Positions 55-59,999 are shown, counted from the stretch's first letter. The stretch is DNA of 64,000 nucleotides from Amoebophrya sp. A120 (GCA_905178155.1 CAJINV010000012.1:2134166-2198165), one strand, 5' to 3'. Translations and numbers: made by a program. Notes: generated by a model not told the origin, from the letters alone.

Positions 55-3000
55 TCGACATGGGTTCTCCGGTTCGCAGGTTCTTGTGCTCCGGCTTCGG
101 TTCGCAGACCCAGGAAGACTTTGACTTTCCATCGGCAGTTTCCGAGGTAGTGGTTTTTTTCGCGATTTGCCAGGTGCGAATCCCATTTGGGAAAAGCCGC
201 TTGTCGCAGGTGACGAACCGCGCCCCTTGCTTGTCGAAGTCCACTCGGTTCTTGATGTTCAACTGGTCCGCGCGCGGCGGCGCCTGGATCCCCGCGACCC
301 CTTCCGCCGCCTTCGCCTCGATTTCCTTTTTTACCACCGCGGCAAGGCCGTTCGCCGCCGCTGTCATCGTGTCCAGCGGTTGTCTATCAAATGTAAAAAT
401 GTCTGGGTCTGGAAGACTGCCAGGTTTGTCATGTAGATTCTGCATGATCCATGACGCCTGTAATGCATGATCTAGTAGCACAGATTTTCAAAGGGCTTCC
501 TACTAATGCCTTCCCGCATGAGAAATTCCCTCTCCGCGTAACACAAACTGGACTCCTGTTGCTGGTCATGCAATACAGATTTTTTTTGAATCCAAAGACA
601 GCATTACAAGTTCCAAGTTTCCAGACCCAGACATATTTGCAATCCATATTGTCGCAAGTTTCGGACCCCCCGGGCCTTCATCCCCTCGACCTTGACTAAA
701 GCGCGCTGCAGGAACGAGGAGGATATCGCAAGAAAAAAGTGTTACAGTTACACATTGTGCTGCAGGCCAAGCAAGACAGACAAGCTCTGTCATGCCGGAT
801 ATGCATAGGAACCTCGTTCTGTCATAAGTGTTTTCCCGTAGGATCTCTGCATTAGTTTTCTCTCCCATGCAGAGAAATTTGCGTTGCTGAATTGATTAGA
901 GCCCGTACGATTAATCGACCCCCTTCTCGATACCGAGAAGGGGGGGGTAGGTGCGGTCGGTCATCCGGTCGTCGCAAAACCTCAGCGATTTACTCCGATC
1001 CAAAATCGGACTTCAAAAATCCAAAATGCTTCGACTGGCCAAATTTGATTTTGAGCGCGGCTTCTTAGTCTCTTACTTTTTTGAACGTGACAGACGTAAT
1101 TCTTGCACGGCGAAATCTGGTATGGTTTGAAGTTGTTCGCGCGCGGCGCGCGAGCGATTTTTCTCTTTTGACGCGTGGGGGCACACGGCGCAGAGGGCAT
1201 TTCCGTGCGCGCAGCGCGTGAAAATTTTTCCATGACCACCTGAAGAAACACGGCCGTAGCAGAGGGAATTTGTTTTAGCCCCCAGAAAGGTTCGAAAATT
1301 TGTGTTGTGGAAGGGAGTTTTCGGCGATCCAGCGCACCGTCGGTTTTCGACGTGAAACGCGACGGCACTACAATTCGGATGGGGGGATCTGCCGAGTTAG
1401 TGTCAGTCGATTTTGGACTTACACGAACTCGCCAGTCGGGCGCCCGACTGGCGAGTTCGTGTAAGTCGAAAAAAAAAAGATTGCAGACTCTTTTCTGCGT
1501 TGCTCTTCCTCCCTTGTCGCCGAGCTGCTCCAGTTTCTCGGCGTTGCTCCTCTTGCTTTGCTACAAAAGTCGTGTCCAAAAAGCACAACTATGAGGCCGC
1601 GCGCAAAATCGGAGCTCCCCCGTCCACCGCACCAAAGATGGCAAATCCAGAAAATATGGGCGCGGGGTGGTAGTGCGATTGTACTTTTTTCTCTTCTTAG
1701 TGGAGCAGAAGCTTTTCTTGGTGTGGTTAGCACCAAGATGACTTTTTAGAAACCACATCAGGAGGAAATACATCAAGCACCACCGAAAGAGAGCGGAGTC
1801 ATAAGTGAAAAACTGCGATCCGCAAGCGCGCCACAAAAGGAATGGGCGCAAAAAAATCTCAATACTAAAGCCCCGCCACGCAATGTCAAAGAAGCCAACA
1901 GCAATTGGCCAGGGGCGCAAGCAAGCTGCTGCTGCGCTCTATTGTTTTTTCTGTCGTAGAGAACGACCCGCCTCCATAGAGAGGACAAGTTTCTAGAGAA
2001 GCTTACAAAAAGCGGCCCGATTGAAAAAGGGGCCGCGGGCTGCGAAAAAGTAAGGGTGTCTGGGATCTACTTGGGAGCGAGTCTGTTGCTTTACTGCGTG
2101 CGCGCAGCGTGTTTCTGTTGCGAAGTAGTTGCGCTACGACTGCTCTCCGAAAAGAGACTTTCTGGTCGTTTTAGCGAGAATAGTGGCAGACATCAGCAGA
2201 AGCAGAGGGCTATTTTGCTTTGTGGCAAGCACTGCAAAACGAGCCAGAGACCACCTGACTGCGCTCTTTTGGGAAAAACTGCACGAAGTAGAAAAAGCGC
2301 CACAGCGCGGGCGATATGTGTTTCGCTTGGTATTAAATAGCATCTACTCGAAGCGAAACCGCGCCAGGCGCTGTAATCTCACAGAAAGAAAATAATGGCG
2401 CAAAATGCGCCGTAGCATCGGCGTTCAATTTCGGAAACAGGATTCGCGATAAAAAGCCCCTCGATTTCGAGAAGGGGGGCGTAGGGGGGTAAGGTCGGTC
2501 AGGATCCGGATTTGGGGGGGCTTCTCGGTATCGAGAAGGGGGTCGATTAATCGTACAGGCTCTTACAAATCTGTAACTGTATGTAAACACTTTTTTCGTG
2601 GGATAGAGGAAGACGAGGAACTACTGCTAGTATCGTAGTACTGCTCATCCAGTTGGTAATCAGGGATTTTGAACAAGCTCGCGATACTCAGGTTTTCCTC
2701 GCAATACTTCATCAGATCCAACCCCAGCGCCGGATTCGTGAACACGTTGCAAAAGGTCGGGGCCGCGCCGCCAAACACCAGTGCGCACTTGCAGCAAATG
2801 ATCCGCTCGGACTGCTTCCCGAAATCGGTCGTGCTTCCGTGCTGGCGCATCACGGTAAATTCCGTGGACCGGAAATTCCTGCCGTCGTAGCAGCTGTCTG
2901 CGAGGCAGTCAGCCAGGTTCGCGGCCACCAAGTCTTGCCACTTCGGGCAATCAACGTAGTCGCAATTGTCATACGTCCCCGCGTGCGACGCAGAAACCGC

Positions 3001-5382
3001 GTAGTTGTATTCGTCGCCCAGCGCAAACCACACGTGCGCAAGTTCGTGCACGAACACCTCCGCGTCCTGGGACTGCGCAATGGTGTAGCGGTAGGGGTTC
3101 CGCGTCAAGTACCCGATGGCATCCGCTGGGCTTGCGATGCCCGCGTGCCACTTGTCACTTGGGCGGGTCCCATGCTCGAGGTTTTGGATCACAATCATCG
3201 CCCGGTAAGTCGGGGTGGTGGAGGAGCAATGATCGATAATCAGTTGCTGCAATTTGTTGTTGAACCGGTCGCCACCCGGGCCGGAATGCACGTCACAGTA
3301 AAAGGTCTCGATCGGCGGATTATCCTTGCCCGGAGGGTACTGCCCGTTCGCGTCGGGCGGAGCGGTCGGCCGGCACCACTTGCCCGCGTATTGCCACTTC
3401 TTCGTTTGTATCAAATGCAAATATGTCTGGGTCTGGAAAAGTCATGCTACTTTTGCATGACACAGAAGGTCTAGGATGGAAGCTCTAGCATCACAGGTTT
3501 CGAGAAGCTCAAGCTTCCGCTTCCGCAATGCCGAATCCGCATGACAAATGCCGCATTTTCTTGGTAACAGAAAGTGGGCAAGTTTTGCTGCCTATGCATG
3601 AGAGATTTTTGCGTGTTTTGATATGCGCATCACAAGTTGCATCCTTCCAGACCCAGACATATTTGCAATGCATAGTTTGCTCGTTGTACTCGTAGCACCC
3701 GGGCAGCTCGTTCCACGGCGGCTCGTCGGTATGACAGTGCACAACTCCCCCTCCCCCTGATTTGTCATGCAAGATACCAAATCCAGCCGTTCCTCTTTGG
3801 CACTTCTTGCATGACAGGTTTCGGAAGCCGAAACAGCATTACAGTCGCTCGCGAGTTAATTTGTCATGCAAAAGCTGCATTTATGATTATGCCAGCACTT
3901 GTGTTGCTGCTTATGCCCTTCAAATGAGGGGGACGAGGGGGAGTTGTGCACTCCCATAATCGGGCGAGAAGCTGCAGAAGACGTTTTGGTCCTCCGGGTG
4001 GGCGGCTTTCACGTAGAAGTAAATTCAGAAAAATGTTCTCCCGCGGGTCGTACGGTCGGTGCTTGATCGCAAAGTCGTAGATCTTCACCACGGTATCTTT
4101 CCACAGGTCCGTATCGTCCTGCACGCCCTCAATGTAGTCGGGGTGCCCCGGAAGCCAAAACCCGCTCGGCGCGAGAATCACGTTCAGCGCCTGCCTTGGA
4201 TCGGCCTGGACATGCAGCGGGTATCAAGTGCAAAATGTCTGGGTCTGGAAACTTGTGATGCCAAAATGTGGATGAGTGAAGCGCTTCCAATGGCAGCCAA
4301 GCATGACAAGTTTTATTTGAGACGCCTGCTGATCATGCCTACCACGCATTACAAATTGCGTTTTTGCATGACAAAGAAAGCTTCTCTTTATTTGCTGCTC
4401 ATGCAACACAGATTTATTTCCGCGAACGCAAGACACGCATTACAAGTTCGACTTTTCCAGACCCAGTTGGAGACATTTTTGCATTTGATAGCGGGTGGCA
4501 GGTGTCTAAACTCCCCCCAATCTCGTGCATCCATTTTGGAGCGTCTTGGGCCATGGATAAGACTTCCATCGTGTCGCTGGGTAAACTCGGCGCGTACGCC
4601 GTGTCCGCATCGTACGGCGCGCTGGAAAGATCCGCACCAGCAATGCCGCTAGCCCCACCCCCACCGGAACCGCCCCCGCCCCCGCCCAGTTGGTCTTTCA
4701 GGCTTTCGATGTCCTCCGAGTTGCTGATCTCCGCGTCGTCTCCTGCTGCCAGATCAAGGTCGATCCCGCAACACCCGTCCTCAGCAGCGTCAGCAGTTGC
4801 TTCGGCTTTTTCAGAAAAGTTTTCCGGCGCAGTTTCCTGTTGCTGCTGTGCTACTCGGTGTAGCTCCTTCCGTTCTTCTTGCTGATGCTGCACGAAAACA
4901 ACTTCTTGTAGCTCCTTCTTCTTTTTCGAAAGCGATAACATCTGCTCCTTCTTCATCTTGTTCTTCCTGCTCTTTTGCGATGTTGATGCTTGTGCAGCTT
5001 CACGACCTTGCTGTGCTGTAGTTTTACTGTGCTGCTTTAACAGCGACTCTCGCTTGTGCTGGTTGTGCAACTGCATCTTCTCGGTCAGTTCGTAGGCTGC
5101 TACTGTAGCGAAAGAGCAGGAGTAGTAGAAACCTGCACCTGCTCCGAGAAGTATTAAAGGCCTTGATGTTCTTCGCTTTACACTCCTTTGCAGCTTGATA
5201 CCCTTGGGCGGAAGAGCATCATTGTGAGTAGACCTGGACGAGATCATAGGAACTACATCAACGGCAGCTCCCCCAGCTTCGCGTGAAGACCTTCTTCTAC
5301 GAGCAGTACCGCTGCCCATCGTGTTGTCCTGCTCAGTTGAGTTGGCTCCTGCGATATCGAGATCGAGAACAGGCGACGACAT
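1..5382 (-). CDS. Peptidase M64 (IgA peptidase)-like zinc metalloprotease with N-terminal hydrophobic segment; multi-exon, runs off window start; apparent 1-nt frameshift near 4022
   Basis: Exon 2606-3408 encodes VFVHELAHVWFALGDEY (HExxH..LxDEY, M64-like) and a Cys-rich tail; LNVILAPSGF upstream. Frames join after removing introners at 4222, 3409, 724 and 385. ATG at 5382 inferred. Confidence 0.7.
385..648. mobile_element. Introner family A (TIR core ATGTCTGGGTCTGGAA)
   Basis: TAT...ATA ends, TIRs, direct repeat TTGTC; removal restores NLRQ-PLDT. Confidence 0.9.
724..2605. mobile_element. Introner family B (TIR core AAAAAAGTGTTACAGTTAC) carrying a nested transposon
   Basis: Direct repeat GAGGA at 719-723 and 2606-2610; frame restored (SSSS-SFLQ). 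Confidence 0.85.
899..2562. mobile_element. Non-autonomous PIF/Harbinger-like DNA transposon
   Basis: 42-bp TIRs GAGCCYGTACGATTAATCGACCCCCTTCTCGATACCGAGAAG (899-940 / 2521-2562, 1 mismatch); TTA target duplication; no transposase ORF. Confidence 0.8.
3409..3674. mobile_element. Introner family A
   Basis: TIRs; DR GTTTG; frame EQT-KKWQ restored. Confidence 0.9.
3730..3958. mobile_element. Introner family E (TIR core GTGCACAACTCCCCCTC)
   Basis: TIRs; DR GTCGG/ATCGG. Confidence 0.85.
4222..4490. mobile_element. Introner family A
   Basis: TIRs; DR GCGGG; frame restored. Confidence 0.9.
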
Positions 5383-7818: not shown

Positions 7819-7887
7819 CCCGACATCTTGATCTTATCGGATCAATATCGTGTTCTAAAAATCAATGATAAAATAACTAGAAGATCC

Positions 7888-8166
7888 TATCCTGAGTAAA
7901 AACGTACCCACACCAGAGTCAGGATGGGGATTTTGCAAAACAAGCCTAGGAGTTTTGTGAGTCACGCATGACAAGTTGCGCTCTGCAGTGTAGTGCAGGT
8001 TAGCAAGTGCAGCCGCATCACAGATTCATCTGCTCATCCTATTCACAGCATCACAAATTCCAAAACACGACTGGGAATGGCTCTCATGGGGATGCGCGTT
8101 ACAAGTCTTCCTGTCTTTGCAAATCTGCATTACAACTCTGGTGTGGGTACGTTTCTACTTAGGATA
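7888..8166. mobile_element. Introner family C (TIR TATCCTRAGTARAAACGTACCCACACCAGAGT)
   Basis: TIRs; DR GATCC; near-identical to 40217-40495. Confidence 0.9.
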
Positions 8167-8210
8167 GATCCTTGGAGTGGTGGAGCAGCACCTCGCTAGG
8201 ATTTCTATGT

Positions 8211-8366
8211 TATGAACTGCAAAAGCATCGTACAAGTATAAATTTAAATTGCAATGCAAGTTAGCTCAGCATTACAAATTAAATTTGTAATGCGGATTTG
8301 CCTTAACCAAAATATTTGCAATGCATAAAAGCAATTGCTACGAGTACGATACTTTTGCACAGGATA
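8211..8366. mobile_element. Introner family D (TIR core TGCAAAAGYATCGTAC)
   Basis: TIRs; DR TATGT/TATCT. Confidence 0.85.
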
Positions 8367-9412: not shown

Positions 9413-12400
9413 TCAAAAGAAGATCCGCTCCAGCATTCTTTCGCCGTGTAAGGTGGTGGGAACCAAACAGTGCTCGCCGTAGTTTTCCGCGATGTACTTC
9501 ACTATTTTCGCGATGTTCCTTATCCTGAGAAAAAAGTGTTACAGTTACACACTCTGATGGAAGACCAGCAAGACAGACAACCTTTGTCATGCAGGAAATG
9601 CTTGCCAGCCTCATTGCATTCGTGTTTTCCCTTGTAGTCTGCGCATCACAGGTTTTGTTGGCCATGTCGAGCAACTTTGTGATGCAGAAACTCCAGCAAA
9701 TGTGTAACTGTAACACTTTTTTCCTGTGATATTCCTGCTATCATCCAGCCCGGAGTGGTGACGGCCATCGAGCTGGAGCGCGCAGGCCTCGAGCATAATC
9801 ACCATGGCGTCTTGTTTCTGTGAAGTCGTGTGGTTTTTGGTCCGATTTTGGTGAAGCTTTGTTATGCATGCAGCTTTGGATCACGATCATGAACGGGGTG
9901 GACAATTGTGAAGATTGTCCACATCTACATGGTCATGCATAAAATCATAATAAACAAAGGCCAGATGAGAGAACAAGCTGAAAAACAAAGCAAATCATAT
10001 ATCATTACTCGACTACTTAGTACGTTGTTCCGATAGTAGACGTAATTCTTGTGCTTCCGCGGGTCACCCAGCAAGTTCGCGAAAATTATTTTGATGTTGC
10101 AGAACGAACGCTCCACGTCATCCGGCAAGCCACAGAGTATCCCACACAAAAAAGCCGCGGGCAGGGCAACTACATTGTATACGCAAAAATAAGCACACAG
10201 AAAAATCTGCGTCGCGTAATATCCTAAGCAGAATGCTGTAGGCTTGCCCATGACATTTTTTTTTTTGCGATTTACCCTTTGATATGCATATGCCCTGCCT
10301 GCTGGTCCTTTTTTCTTTCTGATACAGAGCTTCAGCTGGCCAGGAAGCATCGTTTCCACATCCCAGTCACCACAGGTGATCAACCTAATTTTAGTGAATG
10401 ACTCGTCTGCTCGACACCATCTAGTATACGCTTTTTCGCGGCTAGAACCTTCTACACCGTAGAATCATATTACAGAAGATATTACAAATAGCAACTTTAG
10501 TATTACCCTGAAGAAGAACGAGAGAACCAACAAAATCAAAATATACAGTGAGTTCGGAAAGTGCGCCATAAAGCCCTTCCAGTCCTGGTAAACCCCCGGA
10601 AAATCCCCCGCGTTGTCGACCTCTTCCTGCGTAATCCCCGTCAAGTTTCGGCAAAAGTATTTCAGTTTCGGGTTCAACACCGGCTTCACGAATTTCCGAA
10701 ATTCGGCAACGACCTCTAAAGTTTCTACGTCCAGAATAACCGTGGGAAACTCGATGACTTTATGAGAGTCCACAACTCCCCCTCCTGCCCCTCATTTGTT
10801 GTATGGCATGGACAGCAATACAAACAACAGCACACGTGGAGCCTATGCATGACAACTTTATGCACCTTATGTAGTACTGTTTGGGCAGCTTCCGAAATTT
10901 GTCATGCTAACACAAGTGCCACAAGGCATCAAGGCAGCGACTGGGATTAGGATTTTGCATGACAAACGAGGGGGAGGAGGAGTTGTGCACTCTCATAGAC
11001 CTCGGGCTCAATCGAGTGGTCGTGTTCGCAAGTCGCCTCGAAATCCAGGATGGCGTAATAGGTGTACCTAGAAATAGATATTTGAATTGGATGATTTGTT
11101 TGTTAACTTCGCTTTTGATGCAGCCTGAACTAAAGGTAGGAACCCTGTTGTAGCAGTTATGCAACGGAAACAAACACCACAAGATGAAACGTGTGGAAAA
11201 TGAGAATCTCTTCCCATAAAGAAACGAAATATCAAATTGCGCGAAATTTCTATACTTGTGCCAATTCTTCGCATCAAAAGTGTGTTTCCGACTCAACTGC
11301 TTCAAATTTGCCCAGCTCCTGCTCTCCAAAGCCGCTTTCGGTTTCAAATGCCCGGCCGCTTCGAGAAATTCGGAATTTGTCGTCGCGTAAATAGTACTGC
11401 TGTGACTCGTCGTTGAGGGGACGGAGGGATAATTCGCTGCACCGTAAGTAGAACCTCCAACTGTCGTCGTTGTAGTTCCTGCCGTCGTAGCAGATCGGTG
11501 CAGAAGCCTCTTCGGGTGGCTTTTGCTCTTGTTGATGAACGGGGGTACAGGAGCGCCGCCCCCGCCTACTTGATCATGACTACTGTAGTCCCAGTGCTGG
11601 TTTTGTTGCCAATGGCCATTGAATCCCGCGAATGAGGGTGTAGTTTTTTCCTGGTGGTACGTCGAAGATGTCGTGCCGTTGGATGCAGACCTGTAACTGG
11701 AAAGAGTTTTGCCGCTAGCCGCAGTGGTCGTCCACGCTCCGGAGGTAATATGGTGGTAGTTCTTTTGACCACCGCCTTTGCCACCTTTGATGCTCGTCCC
11801 ACTTGTCCCGCCGTTCTGGCCGTTGCTGTAACCTGCGCCATTGCTGTAGCTACAACCAGAAGGACCTGCGGCTGCGCCGTTTTTCCCGCCATTTTTGTTT
11901 GACACATAGGTAGTAGACGGATTCATCTTCCCACCTTTGTAGCCGTACAAACCGTTCGCAGCTCCTCCAGAAGTTCCGTTGCTGTAGCTTCTGTCTGGGT
12001 AAAAATTCTTGTCCTGCTGGTCACAGTTGTAGCCGCCGTTTGAGGAGCCGTTGCTATCGTTTGTGTTGTAGCTATCGGAGCGGCCGTTGTTCTGTGGATT
12101 TGCATGCTGCTTGTAGCCGTTGGTCCCATTCTTGTTCCAACCGCTCTTCGCCACGGCGCCGCCCTTGCCTTTGGTGTAGCCCGACACCTTGTAGTAAGTA
12201 TCCCCCTCTACTTCGCTTCCATGATACTGACCTGACGCTGACCCGTAATAACTGTCATACCGCGGGTCGTGATCTGCCGGGCCGTTGTACGTGTACGCGT
12301 GCTGTAGTTTCCTCGGCCGGTTACCTGTAGTGCCGCTCTTGCCGTTCCAAGATGTAGCTGAATCAACACCATTTTTTGCCTGGCCTTTGCCATTCTGGAT

Positions 12401-12730: not shown

Positions 12731-13012
12731 GAGTGTTTAAATAACAACTTCATTCAACTACTTCAATTCTAGCTTGTTGATGTCCTGCATTTCCGAAAAA
12801 AGAGTACCCGCATGCTCTCCACCATTTGTTCCGGTCTCAATCAAAGTCCCTGCCCACGGGTCGCACTCCAGCTGGTGGTTTCGAGTGACGTTACTTGCCG
12901 GCGCTGATATGTGTTCAGTTTGCACTGATAATTGTCTTATTTCAAAAGCATAGCTGTAGAGCGCCATCCTATAGATACTGTGTGTTCGACTTCGATCTGT
13001 CTTGCGGCCAGC

Positions 13013-45700: not shown

Positions 45701-47186
45701 TTCTGGATGTGGTTGTGCTTGTTCTCATCTCTGATGTCACCTCGTGCTCCGTACAGTGCGTTTTTGATCTTTTCTTTGATACCACCAGCAGCAACTCCAT
45801 TGCCATTCGTCTTAATATCGCTTGTTCGACGTCTTTGGTCAGCAACTACACGTCGGCCAACATCTTCGTCACTCTCTTCAAGGCTGTAGCTACGCTTCTT
45901 GTTGACCGCAGCTGAGGTAGTAGTTCTTCTCGACGTTGTGACGGTTGTACTTGCTTTATTTTTCCTGGTAGGACGATCTTCATCTTCCACAGCTTTATTC
46001 GTGATCTTGGTATAATTCAAATTTCTGCCGTCCTGCTTCGTGACGACCTGCCGCCGGGACCGCGGCGGAGTGCGGCTTTTGCTTTCGCTATATTCCGAAT
46101 CATGACCGCGACCCCGCTTGCGAAGTTGTACAGTTGCTTGCTGTCGCTTGCGGTCTTCCTGGTTCTTCTTGCTTCTACCATTTTTTCCGCCTTCATCTAG
46201 TACTTCATTGTCGATGGAAAAGCGCCGGCGCGCGACCCCGGTTTGATGCGACGTCTTAGTTGTTTTAGTATTAGTTTCCTGCAGTATCGTGAGAAAAAAG
46301 TGTTACAGTTACACATTTGTTGGAGTTTCTGCATCACAAATTTTCTCTGTGTGACAGAGAAAACTTGTAATGCGAAGATCATAAGGGAAAACAGGAAGGA
46401 AACGCGGCTCCTAAGCATATCCTGCATGAGAAAGGTTGTCTGTGTTGCCGGTCTTGCAACACAATGTGTAACTGTAACACTTTTTTCTTGCGATATGCAG
46501 CTTCTTCACGATAGTCTTCGCCAAATCGTTCTTGTTTCTGTTGTATCCCGTGCAAAAGTATCGTACTTCATGCATTACAAATTTTTTTCTGAAAGCAAAT
46601 CTGCATTACAAAGTTTTTTTGCCATGCTGAGGAAATTTGTAATGCATTTATACGAATACGATACTTTTGCACAGGATATGTTGTTCGCAGCTCGATCTTT
46701 ATCGCCACGCGTGTTTCCCCGGGCAGTAGTAGAATTAATCAAAGCTGGTGAACGAGACCGGGGCCGCCCACGATTATTTCCAGTAGCCTTTTTCCCTTGA
46801 AGATTCTTCGCACCCCGTTTTCCGCTCCTGCTCCTTGAAGAGGACTCTACGCTCCAACTCCTCGCAGGAGCGCGTTTATTTACCGGAGCAAGGCTTGTTT
46901 TCCCGGGCGGCCTCCTGGTGATATTTGTACTTCGATGTCCTTCGTTATCCTTTGCAGCCAGCTTCGCATTAGTAGTCTTCCGCAGAACTATAGGCGAGCG
47001 AGAACGTCGGTTAATATTCTTATTTCTAGAAACGCTTCTGTCTCGCCTCGGTTTGTTCGTGTTCGTTTTCATAGTGGTCCCACCGCGGCGCCCAGGGCTG
47101 CAGCGTTTTGCTGGTCTTCTGACAGCAGGAGAACCTCCTCCGGACGAAGACGAAACAGACTTGTTCCTCCTCCCGCGGGCAACCAT
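42771..47186 (-). CDS. SR-family splicing factor-like protein: long Arg/Ser-rich N-terminus, SRSF10/SCL-type RRM near C-terminus
   Basis: Spliced RRM SVLVRHLP...[29 protein letters not shown]...LDG...VAEDRRKRPGEM; RS dipeptides; 5 introners plus GT-AG introns. The link across 44080-44390 is not fully resolved. Confidence 0.75.
43298..43453. mobile_element. Introner family D (inside RNP1 motif)
   Basis: TIRs; DR TGACG/TGACA; splits GFAYV-KF. Confidence 0.9.
43506..43654. mobile_element. Introner family D
   Basis: TIRs; DR ATGTA. Confidence 0.9.
44464..44622. mobile_element. Introner family D
   Basis: TIRs; DR CTTCC. Confidence 0.85.
46285..46495. mobile_element. Introner family B
   Basis: TIRs; DR TGCAG; very similar to 27968. 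Confidence 0.9.
46544..46678. mobile_element. Introner family D
   Basis: TIRs; DR TGTTG. Confidence 0.9.
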
Positions 47187-48292: not shown

Positions 48293-48759
48293 TTACTTCG
48301 GATTGCGCACGACGTTGATGATGCTGTCCCCCCGCAAAAACATCTTCTGGATGTAGCGGTCCTTGTTGATCGGCTTGCCCTTCTTGCTGCCCTTCGGGTG
48401 TTATGCATTGCAAAAGTAAATCGCAGTCGTATATCAAATTGCAGTCATGCATGACAAATGTCTTTTCTGAGCGGAATTAGCATTACAAATCCCACTTTTC
48501 TTTGTTCCTGCCAAAATTTGTGATGCGAAACGTACTAGTGCGATGCTTTTGCGATGCATAGGTGCTCGACCCACATCTCCCGGGCCTGTTCCAGGACCAT
48601 GTTCATGTGACGGTCATAGGCTTTCAGGCGGGCAATGATCTTGCGGGTGGAACGGAGGTTGATCAAAATCTGACCGTTGTCGCGGACCGCTTTTTGCAGT
48701 AAGTCGTACGGACCCGTCGTCGGGTTGTCGCGGGCGTTCTGTTCGGCCACAGCGTCCAT
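48293..48759 (-). CDS. SmD2: Small nuclear ribonucleoprotein Sm D2
   Basis: [47 protein letters not shown] + [29 protein letters not shown]; two exons separated by introner 48402-48560. Confidence 0.95.
48402..48560. mobile_element. Introner family D in SmD2
   Basis: TIRs; DR GGTGT/GGTGC. Confidence 0.9.
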
Positions 48760-49702: not shown

Positions 49703-52700
49703 CTACCTGTAAATCGATCCGCGGTCGAATCTATCCGCGTGTTGGCTCTCGGCGGCGTGGACGCGGGACATCCTTCTTTCCGACTGAGACGAGAAATTCT
49801 TCTCCACATCTACTTGGTACAGCGGTTTTCTCGGCTGCTGGTGGTTCGCCGAGCTGTTGTTTCGCAGACCCCGCGTAATTTCTTCCCGCGTGCCCGTTGG
49901 GACTCGCTGGTGGCCACCTGGGTGGTATAGCATATTTGCATTGCAATATCATATTAATCAAAGATCCCTACAAATCCATGTTCTCATACCATCCTGCGTA
50001 ATCTTCTGCACGATGCTATGTTGAGGTAAAGGCGTGGATTGGGTACCCACGGATTGGGTACCCACTTTGGATTGGGCACCCGCTCTTGTTTGGGTACCCA
50101 TTTTGGGAACGGGTACCCAGTGGGAAATGGATACTCAGAGGGGGTGGATACTCAGAGTGGGAAATGGATACTCAGTATGATTTGGTTGCCCGGGCGTGTG
50201 AGTACCCAGTGGCATGGAAGCGAAATTGGCTCCCATTTCCCAGGGCGCGCATGACACACCGACGAAGTTCAGAATTTTGCTTTTATGCTGTGCTGCCTCA
50301 TGCTGCGTTTTCGTCTATGGGACGCTACTCACAGTCCTCGCAGTCACAGTACAGAGCCTTGCTGTTTTTAATAAAGTTCTATCTTTATTGGGATCACAAA
50401 TCCCCGAAAGTTCAAAGTTTTATTTTTATTCGCATCACAAAACCGCGAACTTTTAAAATTTTATTTTTATTCACGTTGTAAATCCGTAAACTTTTAAAAT
50501 TTCATTTTTCTTCGCGTTTCAAATCCGCGAAATTTTAAAATTTTATTGAAAACTCTGACTCGATAGGATCGCTTGTTGTCACCGGGTGCGAACCGCAGAG
50601 CCGATGACGGAAGTGATCCAATGAATTCGAGATCGCAGAGGCTGAATCGCCTGAACACGCCCGCTTCCGAAAAGCGATAATGCTTTGCCGGGAGCGGAAG
50701 AAAGACAGAAGCGCAAAAATTCATAAATCGAGCCGCACTGTCGATCGAACGTGTAAAACGGCTGGTCGCTGCTAACCGCCAGACCGACCTGCTTGCGCAG
50801 GGGCGATCAGTCCTGTGCGACTCTCGATGCATATAAAAGACGAAACAACCACGAAACGAACCGCACGATACGAAAACAACACATAGCTAGCTAATGCGAG
50901 TTTACTAACGTGCCGCTTTGTGCCGTCTAAAGGGCGCGGAGGGTGGGATCAAAAAAATGATAGCTAGCAGCGACAAACGGGCTTGCAACCTTCGAGAAGG
51001 TACGGGCGAAATGCAAAACGAGGCAACAAAAGGCCTTTCTGTCGTGAGCGCTCGCCAAAGGGCGGTGCCGCGCAGAGATCACCGTACCTCCGAAAAAACC
51101 GGAGGCGACTGCCCCAACTATCTATCATTTCCGTGCTACGAATAGGAACCGAGCTAGCTATCGCGAGAACACGAACTGACGAGGAGCAAAGCCAAAGCGT
51201 TTAGCTATTTGGGCTCTGCGTCGAGATTGGATCACTTTCCAACTTTTCTAGTTTCCGTCTCCGTTTTCATCACATTTCTACGAATTCAGGATACTTCGAA
51301 ATCAAATTTTATTCGCGAAACAAATCCGCGAACTTTTAAAATTTTATTTTTATTCGAGTCACAAATTCGCGAAGCATGAGAATGAGTTCTACTTTTAATA
51401 TCGCGTGTGGAAATATTACAGAAGTCACAGTGCACAAGCTGAGGAGGGCGCAGCACAGAAGGGGCGTCACAGCGCGCGGCGTCCGGGGGACGGGAAACTC
51501 GCTGTTGACCACCTGGTATGGCGTTTCGATATCACAACCAAAGATCCCACCTAATATCACAACCAAAGATCCCACCTACAAATCGATGCTCTCATACCAT
51601 CCTGCGTAATCTTCTGCACGATGCTATGATGAGGCTTAAAAACTCATCAGCACCACGACATGCGGAATAACGCTATGCAGGATGGTATGATAGAGATAGT
51701 GATTTCCCGCCTTTCTAGTGTATTTGATCAACAAGCGCTGCAGTCGTTTTCAACAAGCAATCGGCATTATACCTGCTCGCGGCGTGCTCCGCGATCTCAT
51801 CTGCATGTTCTGCAACTGAACTCGGTTTTCCAGATTTGTCAGCTGCCGTTGCAGAGCGGTTAACCGTGTCCCGGTGATGTGCGTCTCCGTGTTGTTAACC
51901 GCTGACTGCTTCGGAACCTGATAAAGCCGGGTGGTGTTGCGTATGCCTATGCCCTTTTCACATGCCAAACAGAAGAAGCCGCTTAGCTGAGCCGGCATCT
52001 TTTGCACGTAGTACATCAAAAATACCATCGTCGAACGAAAACAGCATACTTTTACTTACCACTGCCCCTCCACCCCCACTCCGCACTCCACTCGCACCCG
52101 CCGCCGCGGGGACGGGATTTTGTCCAGCGTTGCTCCTGCTGTTCGGCTGGAAGACGTAGTTTTGTTCCAAATCCTCTTTCCACTTTTTCGCCTTCTCCAG
52201 CTCGGTTTTTGCCCTCTCCAAGCTGCTGGTTAGCTCTTCAATCCGGCGGGTTTTTCTTTCGATGGAAAGGACGGCTTTGCTCTGTTTATTTGACAGATTT
52301 CATCTCCGATGAAAAAGATGTTGCACTAAATATTTGTCATGCAAAAAATCTACTGCAGCACTAGTTTGTATTTGTAATGCGCGTCGCACATCAAAAATGA
52401 CTTCTACTTCTATACCATAACTTCTTTCTTCGAAATCTTCAGCTGCTTCATGTCTTCGAAAATCTTCTGCACCACGTCCTGTTGCTCCTTATGCAAGAAA
52501 AAAAAACTTCTGTGTAAGTGTAAGTCTGTGATGCAGAAATTGCAACAGAGTATACGATCCTCATGCTGGTCAGCCATAGTATCCTGCCTTCATATGTGTA
52601 TGTCTATGTTTATGTTTTCAAGTGCTAGCTGTGCATGACAGGATTTCTCTGTCATGCAGAGCAAACTTGTGATGCTGTCACCCCAAAACAGCTGCATTGA

Positions 52701-55700
52701 CACAGTTTTTTTCTTGGATACTCCTCCTGCCACAAGCACAGAGCCTGCGCGATTGATTCCATGGTAGAAACCAGCTGCATGGGGTTCACAATGTCGGACT
52801 CCTTGATCGCTTTTAGCGCCGCTTGTCCCGCGAATAGGTTTTTGCGGTTCAGTTGGTAGTGTTCATACGGGTTATTTACCGTGATGGAAGGCGTGCTGGA
52901 AATCGAAACATCGCCATTTTGGTGCTGATGTTGTCCAACAGCATTATTTCCGTAGTTGGATGAGCTCCTGGCGGTGTAGTTCTGGTTATTTTCAAACGAG
53001 CTTGCAGGCTGAGCCGTGGCCAGTTTACAGAGCTTCTCCAGCACGGGGCGAATGCTTTCGACGGAGTCTTTCCACTGCGATTTTGTCCTTTCGTGGGCGT
53101 TATCAACTGCAAAAATGTCTGGGTCTGGAAGAATGCAAGTTTGTCATGCTTGTCTGGCATGACTCGAGAATCTGTGTTGCATATGCGCGAAAAGGCCCTC
53201 TTGCCAGTCAAAAAATTTGTCATGCATAGCTGCGCATTGCAGTGCGTATTCCATTCACTTTTAGCATCACAAGTTTCCAGACCCAGACATTTTTGCAATG
53301 CATAGGCCTTGCGTTCCTGTTGAAGGAGGGATTGGAGCTCTAGGATTTTCTTGTTATTTCTATGCAATGCAAAAGCATCGTACTAGAACTAAGTAGTATA
53401 AATTGCATTACAAATTAGCCCAGCACTACAAATTGAATTTGTAATGCTGATCTGCCTTTAGAAAGAGATTTGTAATGCATAGATAGATGCAATTAATACG
53501 AGTACGATACTTTTGCACAGGATAATTTCTACCATCCAGCAGCTCTTGGTCGGATACGGATGCGGAGCTGTGATGCGGAGGTACTGCAGCTCCTACAGGC
53601 GTCATGCTGCTGTCCAAAGCCAAATGCTGCGTCGAATAATTGTTCTCATACGTGTTGTTCATGCAGTACCGGTTGGAGTACTGTTCCCGCTCTAGTGGTG
53701 ATCCGCGAGGATGTCCTGGCTGGGAAAAGGATGATCCTGCACCACCACCACCACTTCCTGACAGCGTTCTGCTCATCGTGGTACTACTGGCCCCCCCGCC
53801 GATCACCATTCCGGGCACACTGGCCATCAATTCCGGTGCTTGGTCATCTAGTTTCGAGGTTGTGACCTTCGTTGTGATCAAGGCGGTGGAACTAGCGCTC
53901 CTAGAAGACGGCACGCCGTTCACAAGGAAAGTTGTCCCCGGCACCGCTGTTGTCGACACCTGGTCCAGATGAACCACTTGATTGTGACGATCCACTTGCG
54001 CTGGCACAATGATTGTCGTCGTGCTGGGGTTAAAACTATTTCTGGTTCCCGTTCCTTGGGGCGCGGACGAACAAGAAGAAGAAGAAGAAGAAGAATGCAC
54101 AGCTCCACCGCTGCTGACAATATTCACCTCTGGGTTCTGTTCTCTGCACTCGTTCCGCAATTTCTCCATCTCCTGGCGTAATTGAGACCGCATTTGCGTA
54201 ATTTCCGCGCGATTGGGATTATTCAGTTCCGGGGTACCGAGGAAAAAATGGCTGACGTTCGATTCCGACCGTTTCGCTTTCCTCGTGGAGTTGGAAGTTT
54301 GGTCATGTATTCCGGCCCGCCGAGAGGACTGCTCAACGAAATGATCCGGCTGTGGTAAGACGATCAGATTTCGATCTCGATCATCTTCGTGTAGGTTGGT
54401 TGTTGTAGTGGTTGCAGCTCCGCCAGTTCTACTACCGTAGTAATTGTCCATGTCATCGTCGTGTCGTAGCTGCGTGGAATTCATCACACTAGTCCCACCG
54501 CCAGGAGCGCCATCGTCAACCATTGTGTTCAGCAACGGCGGGCTGATTTTCGGAGTCGTCAGCGCGGAGCGGTTGGTGTAGATCGCTTATGCTGTGCAAA
54601 AGTATCGTACTAGTAGTAATCGCATTACAAATTAGCTCCGCATGGCAAATGGAGTTTGTAATGCTGAGTTACCTTGAGATGAAAATTTGCATTGCATGAC
54701 TGCGATTACTACGAGTACGATACTTTGCACAGGATATCGCTGACGGAGGTGCAACGATGGCCGCTTCGGACGCTCTGGTGGAAGAAGAGCTGCTACTGCC
54801 ACCCGCCTGCTGCTGTAGTTGTTGTGGTCCTTCTGGACGATGGTAGTTTCTTGAAGACGGCGGCGGAGAAGGCCCCCGACAAGAACTTCTTCCGTCACCA
54901 ACGCCCGGGCCCGGTTGGTGGGAAGTAAGCTGCGATGGCGTCAGCGGAACTGTTACACCAGCGAGATTTGAATTTGACGCGGAGCTGGAAGAGCTGCTGC
55001 TGCTCGAAGAGGTGTTATTGTACGTGTTTATCCTAGTTCTGGTAGAATCCAGATCTGGATGCTGAAACGTCGGATTTTCGTGATTTGATAGTGACACACC
55101 AACCGAAGAAGTTGCTGGCGCTTCGCGGTTTGTACCGATATCTCCTGAACTTGTCCCTCCCGTGATCATGTAGCTGTGCGTCTCGCCCGAGTTCATCAAA
55201 CTGCCCCCCTTCTGCGACGCCTGCAAAAACGGACTAGAAACCACAGACGGACTGCGGGAGTAGTTAGAATTCGTTCCCGGCGGAATGGTGATTGTGATTG
55301 GTGGGGGCGCTGGAATTCCCTCGTGGTCCGCTCCGTTGTAAATCGGAGTTTCGTTCGACGGGTGGCGCCGCATTAGATTTATTTGACCACCTGGTGCCGG
55401 GAGCGTTGGGGAGGCTTGTACACTTGTAGTAGTACCTCCAATGTTGCTTATGTTAGCATGATTCTGCTGTTCCTGTGGCGATCCAGATTTGTTGCTCGAG
55501 CTGCTCCTTGTCATGGACCCAATTCTCAGCGGCGGGATCACAACCGGCGATGAGGATTTGGCTCTCGTCTTAACCGGCTGCTGGTGCTCGGACGATTTGT
55601 CATGCTGTTCAGCAGAATTGTTATTATACGCTTTTGACTTGTCTTTGTCATGCTGCACAGCCCGATCACCGCCATCCTCCTCTCCGTCCAAAGCAAACGG

Positions 55701-56571
55701 GTTGTTGCTTTTGTTCGATGAATTCGTCTATCCTGTGCAAAAGTATCGACGTACTCGTAGGAATCGCAAACATGCATTACAAATTTCTTGCTTAAGTGAA
55801 ATCAGCATTACAAATTTTATTTCTCATGCTGAGAAAATTTGTACTACTAGTACGATGCTTTTGCATTTCATATCGTCGAGTTAGAGAGCAAAGGAACCGG
55901 GGGAGGCGAGCAGTCGTGGCCGACGTTTGGTGTAGAGGTTTTCGCTTTATTCCCGCCCATATCAAAAGTAAAAATGTCTGGGTCTGGAAACTTGTGATGC
56001 TGGGTGGCGTCTCATGATGAGGCTACAAATGCTGGCTCAGCATGACAACTTTCTGAGCTCCTATGTGTTGCCTATTCTGCATGACAAACTGCGCTTCTGC
56101 ATCACAGAAAAACGGACCTCTTGGGTAACGTGCATGACAGATTTAAGAGTCATGCCAGACAAGCATGACAAACATGAATTCTTCCAGACCCAGACATTTT
56201 TACAGTTGATAGCCCGACCCACCTGAGGACCCGAGACTCATCTTTGCACTGGTATTTATTTTGTCCCTCAGCGTTGGCGAAACTTCTGGACGAGGTGGAT
56301 AATTGAGCAGATTGTCTTGAAGATGTTCTTTTCCAGCACCCTCAGTTTCCTCCTCCAACTCGGGCGTATCCGGCACTCCCCAAATCTGTCGCATGTCCTT
56401 CTTCAATTGCGTTTTCGGTTTTCGGCTGTTGCTGGAGGCGTTGGACTTCGCCCCGGGGGAAGACATGGCGGGCGAAGCGTTTTTGGTAGTCGCGGAGAAC
56501 GAGGAACTTGATGTGTTTGATTCTTGTTGCGTCGTGGGGCCAACGCCAAGCCCAGGCGAGAGCGCCGTCAT
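49703..56571 (-). CDS. Large low-complexity/coiled-coil hypothetical protein
   Basis: ORFs 56200-56571, 54669-55691, 53426-54535, 52652-53044 etc. are separated by 6 introners and GT-AG introns 52282-52415 and 49918-51772; the last exon is inferred. Confidence 0.65.
49945..51634. repeat. About 1.5-kb intronic insertion bounded by 70-80 bp direct repeats, with internal tandem repeats
   Basis: CAAAGATCC..CTCATACCATCCTGCGTAATCTTCTGCACGATGCTATGWTGAGG at 49959-50026 and 51564-51634; GGGTACCC repeats at 50040-50120; about 39-bp AT-rich units at 50420-50550 and 51305-51375. Confidence 0.75.
52490..52720. mobile_element. Introner singleton family I
   Basis: TIR TATSCAAGAAAAAAA(A)CT(TC)TGTG; DR CTCCT; frame WQEE-QQDV restored. 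Confidence 0.85.
53101..53304. mobile_element. Introner family A (internally deleted, inverted relative to 19407)
   Basis: TIRs; DR GGCGT/GGCCT. Confidence 0.9.
53361..53524. mobile_element. Introner family D
   Basis: TIRs; DR ATTTC. Confidence 0.9.
54588..54736. mobile_element. Introner family D
   Basis: TIRs; DR TCGCT. Confidence 0.9.
55729..55872. mobile_element. Introner family D
   Basis: TIRs; DR TCGTC. Confidence 0.9.
55960..56211. mobile_element. Introner family A
   Basis: TIRs; DR GCCCA/GCCCG. Confidence 0.9.
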
Positions 56572-57078: not shown

Positions 57079-59999
57079 TCAAAGAAACGGGCACGAGCGA
57101 GCAGTAAACAAAGTTGAGTTTTCTTTTCTAAAAAAGACAAGTTCAGCGATGTAGCTCTGGTCCTCGGGTTCGCAGTTCGAGTCAAAGAAAATCCGATTTA
57201 CTTGTTCTGGTATCAGCTTTCGCTTCTGCTTCACACGGTGCAGCGACCAGCACGTGGTTACCCAGATCTTTTTCAGCTTCAAGAAGCGGTCAGCAAATAT
57301 ATTAACCCTGTTATTACTACAACTACCTTCAGTATCCTATCAGTTCTCCAACTTCCTCTCCTCCCCAGCACTATTACTCCTCACCGGGCTCCGCCACCTT
57401 GCCAACAGCTTCTCTTTCTGCTCCCGCCGCCTGGCGAATTCCTGAAACACCTGCAGCTTCTGTTTGTCCAAATCCGATAACTTCTCTTCCGCGGTTTTCG
57501 CAGCTTCCTCCTCGTCAGCCTCGCTGTCGGAATCGTCGTCCTCCGAACCGTCCTCTACCCCCGGGAATTTTATCGGCACAAACTCCCCGATCTTCCTGAC
57601 TGTCGTACTCCCTACCTTGCTCGTGGGAGAATTTGCGGTTTCATCGTCTCCGTCCTTGTCTACTTGCGGATCATTTGCTGTCCCGTCAAAATTCTCATTA
57701 CTTCTCGCCAGTGCAGTCGCTTTGTACTCGTCTTTGCTGAGATATGGAAGCGTCAGGTTTGAAATCGTCAAAGTTGAAATAGTTTGTGATGCATAAAATA
57801 CAAGGCATGAAGTGCCTGTCTTGCCGAGATAGCAAGTGAGGCAGATTGTAAGCCTATCTAGGGTGTGGGATACAGCTGCTAAAGGGGCATGACAAAAGCA
57901 GTCCTCTGTGCCCAAACAGCATGACAAATTGGATTCCGGTGGTCCGAAAATTTGTCATGCGCCGCTTGAAAATTGGTCTTCCAACTGGTATACATTTTAC
58001 GCATGACAAATTATTTCAACTTTGTCGATTTCAAACCTGACGCTTCCATATGAGGATTTCCTGCATCGTCCTCTCCGTGTCCTCCGCAATCTTCTCTTAT
58101 CCAGGAAAAAACAACCATCCCCATCCAATTTGTCATGCAAAACGTGCATAATCTCCAGCGTTTGTCATGCAAAAAATGGATGGGGATGGGTGTTTTTTCC
58201 TGCATATCTCTAACCGTTTTCGCATCGCCTCCAGATCGATCCGCGACTGCACCGCCTTCGAGGTGCCAGACGCTGCTATCGCTGGGATGGGGTCTGACGA
58301 GGACGGGTTGGCGTTGGTTTGTATTGCAATACTACTTCCTACTTCTTCATCCGTGGGGCTACAGCTGTCGAGAGAAGAAGAGGAGGGGACTACTTCTGCA
58401 CCACTGGAGTCTTTTATCGCCGGAATTGGCTGTGCGTGCTTCACAAACTTCTCCTCCTTCGGGACTGGAACTATCCTGAGTAAAACCGTACCCACCCGCC
58501 CAGAGTTGTCATGCAAATGCGCAATGACAGGAACATTTGTAGTGCGCAGTTCCATGAGAGGCATTTCCAATCGTGTTTTGGAATTTGTAATGCTGTAAAC
58601 AGGATGAGAAAGTGGCTTTCTCATGCGGCTTCCCTTGCCAGCCAGCACTACACTGCAGAGAGAAGCTTGTCATGCACAGCTCCCAAAACTTGGAGATTTG
58701 TGTTGCTAGATTCCCAACTTGACTATGGGGTCGTGGAGACGTTTTTGCTCAGGATAGGAACCTTGAAATAGTCACTGTTCGGGTTGATCTGCTCCTCAAT
58801 CCGGTTAGCGTTGTTGACAAACTCATGCTATCAACTGCAAGAGTGTCTGGGTCTGGAAGGGTGTGAAGTTGTGATGCGCATTTCACAACACACACAAATC
58901 TCTCATGCATAGGCCGCAAAAGATGCCCGCTTCCTGTCACCAAAATGGAGGGCTGGTCATGCGGGTTAGGCATTGCGAGACCTTCTCGACGAAACCTGTG
59001 ATGCTAGGGCCTCCATGCCAGACCTTCTGTGCCATGCAAAAACAGCCCGACATCGTCCAGAGGACCCAGACATATTTGCAATGCATACATGTTCGTCAAA
59101 ATCGTCTTCCACATCGAACCCGCTTGATTTCGCGAGGAGCTTCAGCGAATCGTGCGGCACCTGGCAGCTCCACTTGAACAGCAAACCCATTGCGACTTCG
59201 GCTTCCCGTTCCAGGTCGAGGGCCTGGGGTGTTGATTTTTGCAAGACAAAATTCATACGCAGGTTCAAGTGTCACGCATCATGTTCATGCAACACAAACA
59301 GAATTCTATCAGGACTTTTGCATGACAAAATACCCCAATTATCCAATATACCTTCAGCCTATCAGCCGCCATGTACAACTTCTTCAAGCACTCCTCCTTC
59401 TCCACGCCACTCAGCCCCATCTTCTCCCCCGCTACCGCCTGTCGGTACGCGTATTTGCAGCTCGAGTGCGCACAATTGTCGCTGAGCGGGAACAATTCCA
59501 AGCACTTTTCGCAATCCTTAAACGCCTTCTCATTTTCGTTCAACTGGAGGAAGCAAAGCGCCCGGTTGCCCAACATCCCCGCAAGCTTTTCCCGGATGGA
59601 CTGGGCTTCCGCGAAGGTTTGCTGTTCATCGCTTGTAGTTGTAGTTTCGGGAGATGATGAAGAGGAGACGGAAAGTAATCTTTGCTTGCACAGAGTCACC
59701 CCCTTCGTGTACTCCGTCGCTGCTTTTTCGTAGTCGGCTTGCTTGAAGAAGTGCGTGCCGAGCCGCTTCTGCTCAATGATCTGGGAAAGTGTGATGTCTG
59801 GAGTAGAAGATGTTGATGGTGGAAAAACTTGTTCCAATGGCGACTGCGCCGGGGTGGAAAGAGTTGGTGTATCTGCAGTTTTGTTCTTCGACTTCGCGAG
59901 CAAGTCCTGTTTCATCTTCGCGCGAAGTGCGGCTTTGTCAACCTGGAGGTTGAGACCCCGCCGGGTCTGGTGCTGGTCGCTCGCGGTGGGGCTTACCAT
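57079..59999 (-). CDS. TPR-repeat co-chaperone-like protein (possibly RPAP3/SPAG1-like); ends uncertain
   Basis: KRLGTHFFKQADYEKAATEYTKG, LGNRALCFLQLNENEKAFKDCEKCLELFP, KYAYRQAVA; frame continuous across GT-AG intron 59224-59351 and 4 introners. Confidence 0.75.
57743..58050. mobile_element. Introner singleton family J
   Basis: 39-bp TIR TATGGAAGCGTCAGGTTTGAAATCGWCAAAGTTGAAATA (1 mismatch); DR TGAGA/TGAGG. Confidence 0.9.
58098..58206. mobile_element. Introner family G (109 bp, smallest)
   Basis: TIRs; DR TCTCT; frame RLE-KIAE restored. Confidence 0.9.
58472..58756. mobile_element. Introner family C (inverted relative to 7888/40217)
   Basis: TIRs; DR GGAAC. Confidence 0.9.
58829..59087. 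mobile_element. Introner family A
   Basis: TIRs; DR CATGC/CATGT. Confidence 0.9.

What the first reader, a model, noticed from the sequence alone, without database searches (positions are those of the whole stretch)
385..59087. Massive multi-family system of TAT...ATA transposon-like elements acting as non-canonical introns (introners)
Seen: 51 complete elements in at least 11 families with dissimilar cores (A x14, D x18, B x4, C/E/F x3, G x2, four singletons). All share TAT...ATA termini (one ends GTA), 15-40 bp TIRs and a 5-bp flanking direct repeat of arbitrary sequence (34 perfect, 17 imperfect). 49 of 51 sit in inferred coding exons. Deleting the element plus one repeat copy restored the frame at the junctions I translated (one exception is explained by a separate frameshift near 4022), including inside conserved motifs (SmD2, RRM RNP1, ERI1 active site). 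In the cases I slid through the repeat (385, 10138) no GT-AG register exists. Knowledge: IR/DR-bearing non-canonical introners have been reported in Amoebophrya genomes, but their splicing machinery and mobilising transposase are, to my knowledge, unresolved. Inference: a structure-directed (stem plus direct repeat) excision pathway operates beside the ordinary GT-AG spliceosome.
Basis: partly seen in the sequence, partly recalled or inferred. Interest (0 to 1): 0.88.

Follow-up and report, generated by a model that had tools for sequence, protein, structure and literature searches.

The report
Amoebophrya transposon introns without GT-AG
Genes of the marine parasite Amoebophrya A120 are interrupted by dozens of short transposon-like inserts that are cut out of the RNA exactly although they lack the usual splice signals; the system was published in 2021, and the cutting enzyme, likely guided by the inserts' paired ends, is still unknown.

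Summary
Real, but already described. All 51 TAT...ATA elements, the 11 families and the 34 perfect/17 imperfect 5-bp repeats are confirmed. A host SmD2 exon is 100% identical to an Amoebophrya sp. A120 protein, and the ends fit the published A120 introner motif (Farhat 2021). RNA-type contigs of one sample skip exactly element + 5 nt at 9 of 11 elements laid, in the same contigs that lose a GT-AG intron; a DNA-type run keeps both. Only 1 of 51 has a GT-AG register. Added here: in 4 of 4 imperfect repeats the upstream copy is kept (one places the cut at or 1 nt before TAT); both orientations are spliced; a shared internal motif GCAT(G/T/C)ACA occurs in 48 of 51 elements; insertion phase is biased. 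A Ginger-like A120 family with 5-bp TSD and TA/TA ends is already reported (Gozashti 2025); I found no transposase. An apparent polarity of repeat mismatches did not replicate. The scan noted similar hairpin-bounded introns in other genomes (unchecked). The excision enzyme stays open.

The parts
385..648 (.). introner family A, DR 5/5
724..2605 (.). introner family B (218 bp of its own) carrying a nested insert, DR 5/5
899..2562 (.). nested TIR element (42-bp TIR starting GAGCC, TTA on both sides; PIF/Harbinger-like by recalled TSD rule), no Pfam hit in its ORFs
   Evidence: shorter copy in L028 11414-12261
3409..3674 (.). introner A, DR 5/5
3730..3958 (.). introner C, DR 4/5
4222..4490 (.). 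introner A, DR 5/5
7888..8166 (.). introner E, DR 5/5, no long ORF around it
8211..8366 (.). introner D, DR 4/5, no long ORF around it
9521..9731 (.). introner B, DR 5/5
10138..10324 (.). introner singleton, DR 5/5
10761..10997 (.). introner C, DR 4/5, in an exonuclease-like reading frame (ERI1 label recalled, not tested)
13300..13462 (.). introner D, DR 3/5
13527..13677 (.). introner F, DR 5/5
19407..19664 (.). introner A, DR 4/5
19956..20184 (.). introner C, DR 5/5
20773..20927 (.). introner D, DR 4/5
20994..21141 (.). introner D, DR 5/5
25384..25548 (.). introner D, DR 5/5
25617..25874 (.). introner A, DR 5/5
26944..27093 (.). introner D, DR 5/5
27968..28178 (.). introner B, DR 5/5
28319..28487 (.). 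introner F, DR 5/5
28558..28679 (.). introner G, DR 5/5
28725..28885 (.). introner D, DR 4/5; the only one with a GT-AG register on the transcript strand
35090..35341 (.). introner A, DR 5/5
35810..41947 (-). host reading frame, 1238 codons stop-free only after removing 11 elements + 5 nt each
35907..36172 (.). introner A, DR 5/5
36338..36592 (.). introner A, ends GTA, DR 5/5
36756..37017 (.). introner A (orientation opposite to 40554 and 40990), skipped +5 in 4 of 4 runs
37106..37261 (.). introner D, DR 4/5, skipped +5 in 4 of 4 runs, upstream copy kept
37369..37529 (.). introner F, skipped +5 in 3 of 4 runs
38469..38633 (.). introner singleton, DR 4/5, skipped +5 in 3 of 4 runs, upstream copy kept
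39249..39405 (.). introner D, skipped +5 in 2 of 4 runs
40217..40495 (.). introner E, DR 4/5, skipped +5 in 2 of 4 runs; upstream base kept at repeat position 4, which places the cut at or 1 nt before TAT
40554..40823 (.). introner A, skipped +5 in 1 of 4 runs
40990..41238 (.). introner A, skipped +5 in 1 of 4 runs
41435..41583 (.). introner D, DR 4/5; no joint listed
42910..43105 (-). ordinary GT-AG intron skipped in the same contigs (control for RNA origin)
43298..43453 (.). introner D in an RRM domain, DR 4/5, skipped +5 in 4 of 4 runs, upstream copy kept
43506..43654 (.). introner D, DR 5/5; loose end in 4 of 4 runs continues in the next exon upstream
43655..43660 (-). likely 6-nt exon between a GT-AG intron (43661-43784) and introner 43506
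44464..44622 (.). introner D, DR 5/5
46285..46495 (.). introner B; skipped together with 46544 in an X1 contig (43 letters between = 53 - 2x5)
46544..46678 (.). introner D, DR 5/5
48402..48560 (.). introner D in the SmD2 (LSM) gene, DR 4/5; the annotated A120 protein reads through the junction
52490..52720 (.). introner singleton, DR 5/5
53101..53304 (.). introner A, DR 4/5
53361..53524 (.). introner D, DR 5/5
54588..54736 (.). introner D, DR 5/5
55729..55872 (.). introner D, DR 5/5
55960..56211 (.). introner A, DR 4/5
57743..58050 (.). introner singleton, DR 4/5
58098..58206 (.). introner G, DR 5/5
58472..58756 (.). introner E, DR 5/5
58829..59087 (.). introner A, DR 4/5

Best explanation
These are the introner elements of Amoebophrya sp. 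A120: short inverted-repeat inserts, likely non-autonomous DNA transposons, that sit in exons in either orientation and are removed from the RNA together with one copy of a 5-base duplication, likely by an end-recognising nuclease and ligase working beside the GT-AG spliceosome. Step 1 (inferred): an integrase-related DDE transposase of the Ginger / IS3EU-GingerRoot group binds the TAT-N7-AAA ends and the internal GCAT(G/T/C)ACA repeats and inserts the element with a 5-bp staggered cut. Step 2 (shown for 9 elements in contigs of one sample): transcripts lose element + 5 nt, restoring the pre-insertion sequence. Step 3 (upstream copy kept in 4 of 4 informative junctions; the exact bound rests on one, 40217): the 5' cut lies at or 1 nt before UAU and the 3' cut 4-5 nt after AUA. 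Step 4 (predicted): the inverted repeats fold back and bring both cuts together. Step 5 (untested): a protein endonuclease measures from the UAU/AUA ends and a ligase joins the exons, releasing a linear or circular, unbranched RNA as reported for euglenids. Identity and RNA-level removal about 0.95; the non-spliceosomal chemistry about 0.55.
For: Anatomy. Organism: (100% identity, named A120 protein that reads through the junction). Published motif TAT + 7 nt + AAA and 5-bp DR. Exact skips of element + 5 at 9 of 11 elements and a GT-AG skip in the same contigs. X5 contigs run across element borders and through that intron with 0 gaps. GT-AG register in 1 of 51. No preferred base at any duplication position after codon correction (p 0.046-0.71 over 5 positions, n = 146), so the 3' cut has no fixed sequence. 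Both orientations occur in exons and both are spliced in family A (36756 against 40554 and 40990). Folds: median z -5.8. 45 of 51 inserts cannot be read through. Ginger-like A120 fam38 with 5-bp TSD and TA/TA termini; TA..TA termini in IS3EU/GingerRoot.
Against: The RNA evidence is one sample, contigs only, depth 3-29, labelled 'RNA?' by the tool; raw reads X8 and X9 laid only 4 and 2 reads. No excised product, lariat or enzyme was observed. G-U versus A-C arm mismatches on the transcript strand lean the expected way but are not significant (39:31, p 0.40; 116:92, p 0.11), so selection on RNA pairing is not shown. The outermost pair is unformed in 18 of 51 predicted folds. No transposase in 84 window ORFs and no long element with a convincing ORF in 736 kb of loci, judged by eye without a family scan. 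Farhat found almost all spliceosomal proteins, so a modified spliceosome is available.
Confidence: 0.55

Rival explanations
1. A modified U2-type spliceosome (U1 not detected in A120) removes the elements, with the fold-back stem replacing GT/AG recognition and U5 aligning the exon ends.
For: Nearly all spliceosomal proteins and U2, U4, U5, U6 were found in A120, U1 was not. Tunicates splice mostly non-GT-AG introns with altered U2AF and snRNAs (search listing only). With the cut 1 nt before TAT, 48% of elements (93 of 194) would be phase 0, like the usual spliceosomal excess (recalled).
Against: No fixed 3' dinucleotide; orientation-independent removal. The internal motif, which resembles a branch-site UnAC (recalled), is present only on the antisense strand in 8 of 51 elements, among them spliced 37106, 40217 and 40990, and shows no strand bias (58:84 and 195:222). 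A likely 6-nt exon beside a GT-AG intron suggests two independent processes.
Confidence: 0.3
2. The junctions are reverse-transcriptase template switches across a hairpin at the 5-bp repeats, not real splicing.
For: A strong hairpin flanked by short direct repeats is the textbook setting for this artefact (recalled); the runs are presumably cDNA.
Against: 45 of 51 inserts break the frame, including SmD2 and 11 in one 1238-codon frame. At 40217 the kept base is the one a switch would disfavour, since it would anneal on 1 base rather than 3 (inference). No unspliced contig across an exon-element border is among the pieces listed (439 pieces not shown).
Confidence: 0.05
3. The elements are excised from DNA in a life stage or nucleus (IES-like), and the RNA copies the cleaned DNA.
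For: TA-type ends and transposon ancestry recall ciliate IESs (recalled); element + one repeat is a precise excision product.
Against: X5 contigs cross element borders unbranched at depth about 22-34. The element-free contigs also lack a GT-AG intron. Limits: 1658 joints were not shown, contigs drop rare variants, X5 may be the window's source, and life stage is unknown.
Confidence: 0.05
4. The elements are self-splicing RNAs.
For: Strong predicted structure.
Against: No Rfam match at gathering score in the window; works in both orientations; cores of 109-308 nt differ between families.
Confidence: 0.05

Closest known systems
Introner elements (non-canonical introns) of Amoebophrya sp. A120, Farhat et al. 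2021, PMC7789003
   Same: Same organism by protein identity; IR starting TAT + 7 nt + AAA, DR of 3-5 nt (5 bp in Fig. S19 legend), many families, RNA-supported removal, hairpin model.
   Different: The paper calls splice positions variable or unknown. In the passages and supplement text I saw it does not mention a kept repeat copy, orientation independence, the internal motif or a phase bias; figures were not visible.
A120 introner families of Gozashti et al. 2025, PMC12130899, esp. fam38
   Same: TIR DNA classification; fam38 is listed as 'Ginger', '5-bp TSD, TA/TA Termini', about 810 bp, with integrase-like ORFs. Listed lengths (149, 209, 252-260, 278, 106, 305 bp) match window families by length only.
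   Different: Window elements are short and carry no ORF; no sequence comparison with fam38 was possible.
Ginger1/2-TDD and IS3EU/GingerRoot DNA transposons (PMC2836005, PMC10045372)
   Same: TIRs; 5-bp TSD in TDD-4/5; TA..TA termini in IS3EU/GingerRoot.
   Different: Ginger ends are TGTNR; IS3EU/GingerRoot TSDs are usually 6 bp; no transposase is linked here.
Euglenid nonconventional introns (PMC12501133, PMC11282704)
   Same: No GT-AG, paired ends, TSD-like repeats, longer spacer at the 3' end (N5-6 there, N4-5 here), coexistence with ordinary introns, unknown enzyme.
   Different: Motif CDG/CHG after 3 nt and a purine at the exon start, against TAT/ATA after 0-1 nt and no purine preference; unrelated lineage.

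Membership tests
Amoebophrya A120 introner elements | IR starts TAT, 7 variable nt, then >=3 A | tested here: met
   TAT in 101 of 102 ends; A at positions 11-13 in 93, 96, 94 of 102; definition
Amoebophrya A120 introner elements | 3-5 nt direct repeat at the boundaries | tested here: met
   34 of 51 perfect 5-mers; 272 of 364 in related loci
Amoebophrya A120 introner elements | repeated in families | tested here: met
Amoebophrya A120 introner elements | RNA-supported removal without GT-AG | tested here: met
   9 of 11 elements laid; one sample, contigs
Amoebophrya A120 introner elements | located in the A120 genome | tested here: met
   one host exon 100% identical to a named A120 protein
Ginger1/Ginger2 | TGTNR termini | tested here: not met
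   termini TAT
Ginger2/TDD | 4-5 bp TSD | tested here: met
IS3EU/GingerRoot | TA..TA termini | tested here: met
IS3EU/GingerRoot | 6-bp TSD | tested here: not met
   no perfect adjacent 6-mer among 352 elements
Ginger-related transposons | integrase-like DDE transposase in an autonomous partner | tested here: inconclusive
   none in 84 window ORFs; whole genome not held; reported for fam38
U2 spliceosomal introns | GT/GC...AG ends | tested here: not met
   1 of 51
U2 spliceosomal introns | lariat intermediate | not testable with these tools
   needs raw reads of excised introns
Euglenid nonconventional introns | N3CDG...CHG N5-6 | R signature | tested here: not met
Euglenid nonconventional introns | circular excised RNA | not testable with these tools
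   contigs only
Ciliate-type IES | precise removal from DNA | tested here: inconclusive
   retained in the X5 pieces shown; joint table cut, rare variants invisible

The most novel reading that the evidence does not exclude
A120 runs a second, spliceosome-independent splicing machine that reads UAU...AUA transposon ends in either orientation and cuts in a fixed register (0-1 nt before, 4-5 nt after). All introner families are mobilised by one integrase-type transposase that binds a shared GCAT(G/T/C)ACAAATT array with about 31-bp spacing. The transposon would thus be scarless at the RNA level wherever it lands.
Probability: 0.4. Interest if true: 0.8.

Novelty: already known. Interest (0 to 1): 0.33.

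Why it matters
The system itself is published. What remains open is how tens of thousands of GT-AG-less transposon introns are removed. The register, orientation independence and shared motif found here turn that into direct tests: where the cut lies genome-wide, whether the product is branched, and which protein binds the motif. If a spliceosome-independent route is confirmed, it would parallel the euglenid case in an unrelated lineage and explain how transposons can invade exons without harm.

Tried and rejected
1) Polarity of repeat mismatches: the window gave 8, 6, 0, 2, 2 over transcript positions 1-5 (p 0.017); 105 orientable elements of 352 in related loci gave 7, 4, 4, 10, 4 (p 0.29). 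Rejected.
2) Both repeat copies under coding constraint (variable register): 19 of 38 mismatches synonymous, compatible with one free copy (p 0.10-0.39). Rejected.
3) G-U over A-C excess: not significant.
4) Internal motif as branch site: no strand bias.
5) Autonomous partner: none in the window. Long TAT-ended candidates in the loci were nested or insert-bearing copies, or mis-paired ends. A family search of those contigs was not possible. The family-D pattern had 0 matches in viral contigs.
No RNA holder is listed on record.
7) Rfam: 0 matches.
8) No earlier notes on this genome.
9) The TTAGGG-ended element at 6962-7818 does not reopen a frame when removed.
10) Base preference does not explain the phase bias.
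Literature searches for the mechanism and motif (supplement searches) listed no paper resolving A120 excision or naming the motif. The library lacks most subscription papers, and figures (Farhat Figs 3, S19-S25) could not be seen.

Full report
Observation. An exhaustive scan of the window for TAT...ATA pairs with complementary arms and a flanking repeat gave 48 hits at arm score >=20, against 0-1 in each of 20 dinucleotide shuffles. After removing overlapping mis-pairings and adding copies found, the list is 51 elements, 385 to 59087. Clustering gives 18, 14, 4, 3, 3, 3, 2 and four singletons at threshold 0.35 (10 families at 0.25, 22 at 0.45); 34 repeats are perfect and 17 imperfect; one end is GTA. 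The host frames are on the minus strand. Removing element + 5 nt opens spans >=600 nt at 37 of 51 junctions against 9-17 for frame-shifting offsets, including a 1238-codon frame holding 11 elements. Pfam confirms LSM, RRM, PITH and TPR domains among 84 ORFs scanned and no transposase.

What it is. The first SmD2 exon is 100% identical to a 100-aa protein named Amoebophrya sp. A120, and that protein equals the element-free translation across the 48402 junction. Farhat et al. 2021 (PMC7789003; I read the abstract, passages, sections 10, 12 and 16, and supplement text without figures) describe 29,850 repeated non-canonical introns in A120. Their inverted repeats start TAT, 7 variable bases, then AAA, with 3-5 nt direct repeats; this is the window's end consensus. 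Gozashti et al. 2025 (PMC12130899; passages, supplement file 1 passages, 41 of 58 A120 rows of file 8) list 58 A120 families, among them fam38: 'Ginger', '5-bp TSD, TA/TA Termini', about 810 bp, with integrase-like ORFs. The finding is therefore a known system in its known host.

RNA or DNA. Four runs of one sample (X1-X4, contigs, kind guessed as RNA) were laid on 36650-43750 at 99% likeness. Ten joints were listed: nine skip exactly element + 5 nt (of 11 elements in the stretch) and one is a GT-AG intron (42910-43105) lost in the same contigs. Element 43506 shows as a loose end leading to the next exon in 4 of 4 runs; 41435 has no joint. In one search an X1 contig leaves 43 letters between 46679 and 46279, which is 53 minus two repeats. 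Run X5 has flat depth in unique sequence, runs through that GT-AG intron and across element borders with 0 gaps, and so behaves as DNA with the elements in place. Its joint table was cut (1658 rows hidden), contigs drop rare variants, and it may be the window's source. Raw runs X8 and X9 laid 4 and 2 reads. Only 1 of 51 elements has a GT-AG or GC-AG register, and 45 of 51 cannot be read through, which argues for removal in the cell and against a cDNA artefact.

New detail 1, register. Four spliced elements have imperfect repeats. The joints 37100>37262 (4 letters ambiguous), 38463>38634 (3), 40211>40496 (1) and 43292>43454 (4) all keep the copy upstream in the transcript, at repeat positions 1, 2, 4 and 1. 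The position-4 case (2 runs, depth 3-6) puts the 5' cut at or one base before TAT and the 3' cut 4-5 bases after ATA. Farhat's Fig. 3 legend leaves the border unknown. The longer 3' spacer recalls the Euglena code N3CDG...CHG N5-6|R (PMC12501133, abstract and discussion), but the motif differs.

New detail 2, symmetry. Families occur in both orientations in minus-strand genes (D 11:7, A 9:5, B 2:2), also in related loci. Family A is spliced both ways (36756 against 40554 and 40990). Folds are strong (median z -5.8), but the outermost pair forms in only 33 of 51, and 37369 and 39249, where it does not, are cut exactly. Positions 4-7 of the arms pair in only 22-34 of 51 while positions 1-3 and 11-13 pair in 47-51. 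The end sequence may thus be read as sequence, or kept for the transposase.

New detail 3, shared motif. GCAT(G/T/C)ACA, usually followed by AATTT, occurs 142 times in 48 of 51 elements, against 3.1 in shuffles and 17 in the other 53.6 kb; one form, GCATGACA, is in 10 of 11 families. A pattern scan of metagenome contigs (12 of 64 parts scanned, 158 loci, 736 kb, all contigs of one assembly prefix) recovered full-length matches for 49 of 51 elements at 72-96% identity. It held 364 distinct elements, 272 with a perfect 5-bp repeat, and 1038 motifs in 338 of 352, commonest spacing 31 nt. I did not establish whether that assembly is the same strain. The motif shows no strand bias, so a DNA-binding site, likely for the transposase, is the better reading (inference). 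It is absent from Farhat's supplement text, and a full-text search listed no relevant paper.

New detail 4, phase. TAT falls at phase 1 in 21 of 48 window elements and 72 of 146 orientable locus elements (pooled p 9e-5), not explained by single-base target preference. A cut one base before TAT would make this phase 0. Unexplained.

Against my readings. The mismatch polarity seen in the window did not replicate; synonymous excess and G-U excess were not significant; no autonomous element was found.

Mechanism. Insertion by an integrase-related transposase is inferred from the 5-bp TSD, TA ends and fam38 (PMC2836005 and PMC10045372, passages); Ginger's TGT ends and GingerRoot's 6-bp TSD are not met, so no family membership is claimed. 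RNA removal is shown for nine elements. For the chemistry I favour an end-recognising nuclease plus ligase (0.55) over a modified spliceosome (0.3), because there is no fixed 3' sequence, no strand-specific internal signal and no orientation preference. Euglenid introns offer a precedent with non-lariat circles (PMC11282704, passages). This step is untested.

Verdict. Observation confirmed, interpretation partly supported, novelty already known. The added details are modest, rest partly on one sample, and sharpen an open question. Interest 0.33.

Noticed in passing
window 6962-7818: 857-bp element with 81-nt inverted arms starting TTAGGG and a perfect 5-bp repeat (CCCGA); its end fits the TTA-purine-purine-G motif described for strain A25, not A120. 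It lies in a stretch without a long ORF; no copy in the loci.
   Followed up: partly
window 899-2562; L028 11414-12261: TIR element with TTA/TAA flanks (PIF/Harbinger-like, recalled rule) nested inside a family-B introner, using it as a possible safe harbour; whether the 1.9-kb composite is still spliced was not tested. Internal perfect-type palindrome at 1411-1472.
   Followed up: partly
window 43655-43660: Likely 6-nt exon between a GT-AG intron and an introner; a single non-canonical cut would give the same mRNA and is not excluded.
   Followed up: partly
window 1-54: Tail of a further element ending CCCATA, cut by the window edge; matches L005 and L035.
   Followed up: partly
window 35719, 35755, 38101, 38231, 43959, 44286, 52335, 52373, 55598, 55646: Copies of the internal motif outside recognised elements, often in pairs 36-48 nt apart; possibly decayed elements or a general genomic site.
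   Followed up: no
window 49967-51634, 50372-50535, 60249-62942: 60-bp direct repeat 1608 nt apart enclosing 41-nt and 18-nt tandem arrays; and a degenerate ~1.3-kb tandem duplication near the window end.
   Followed up: no
L003 6156-7300: Family-A copies with variant ends (one ending ATC, others starting CAT or ending ATG) in an apparent coding region.
   Followed up: no
window 48250-48759: The spliceosomal core gene SmD2 and an RRM gene (43106-43900) themselves depend on introner removal.
   Followed up: yes
   Followed up: no
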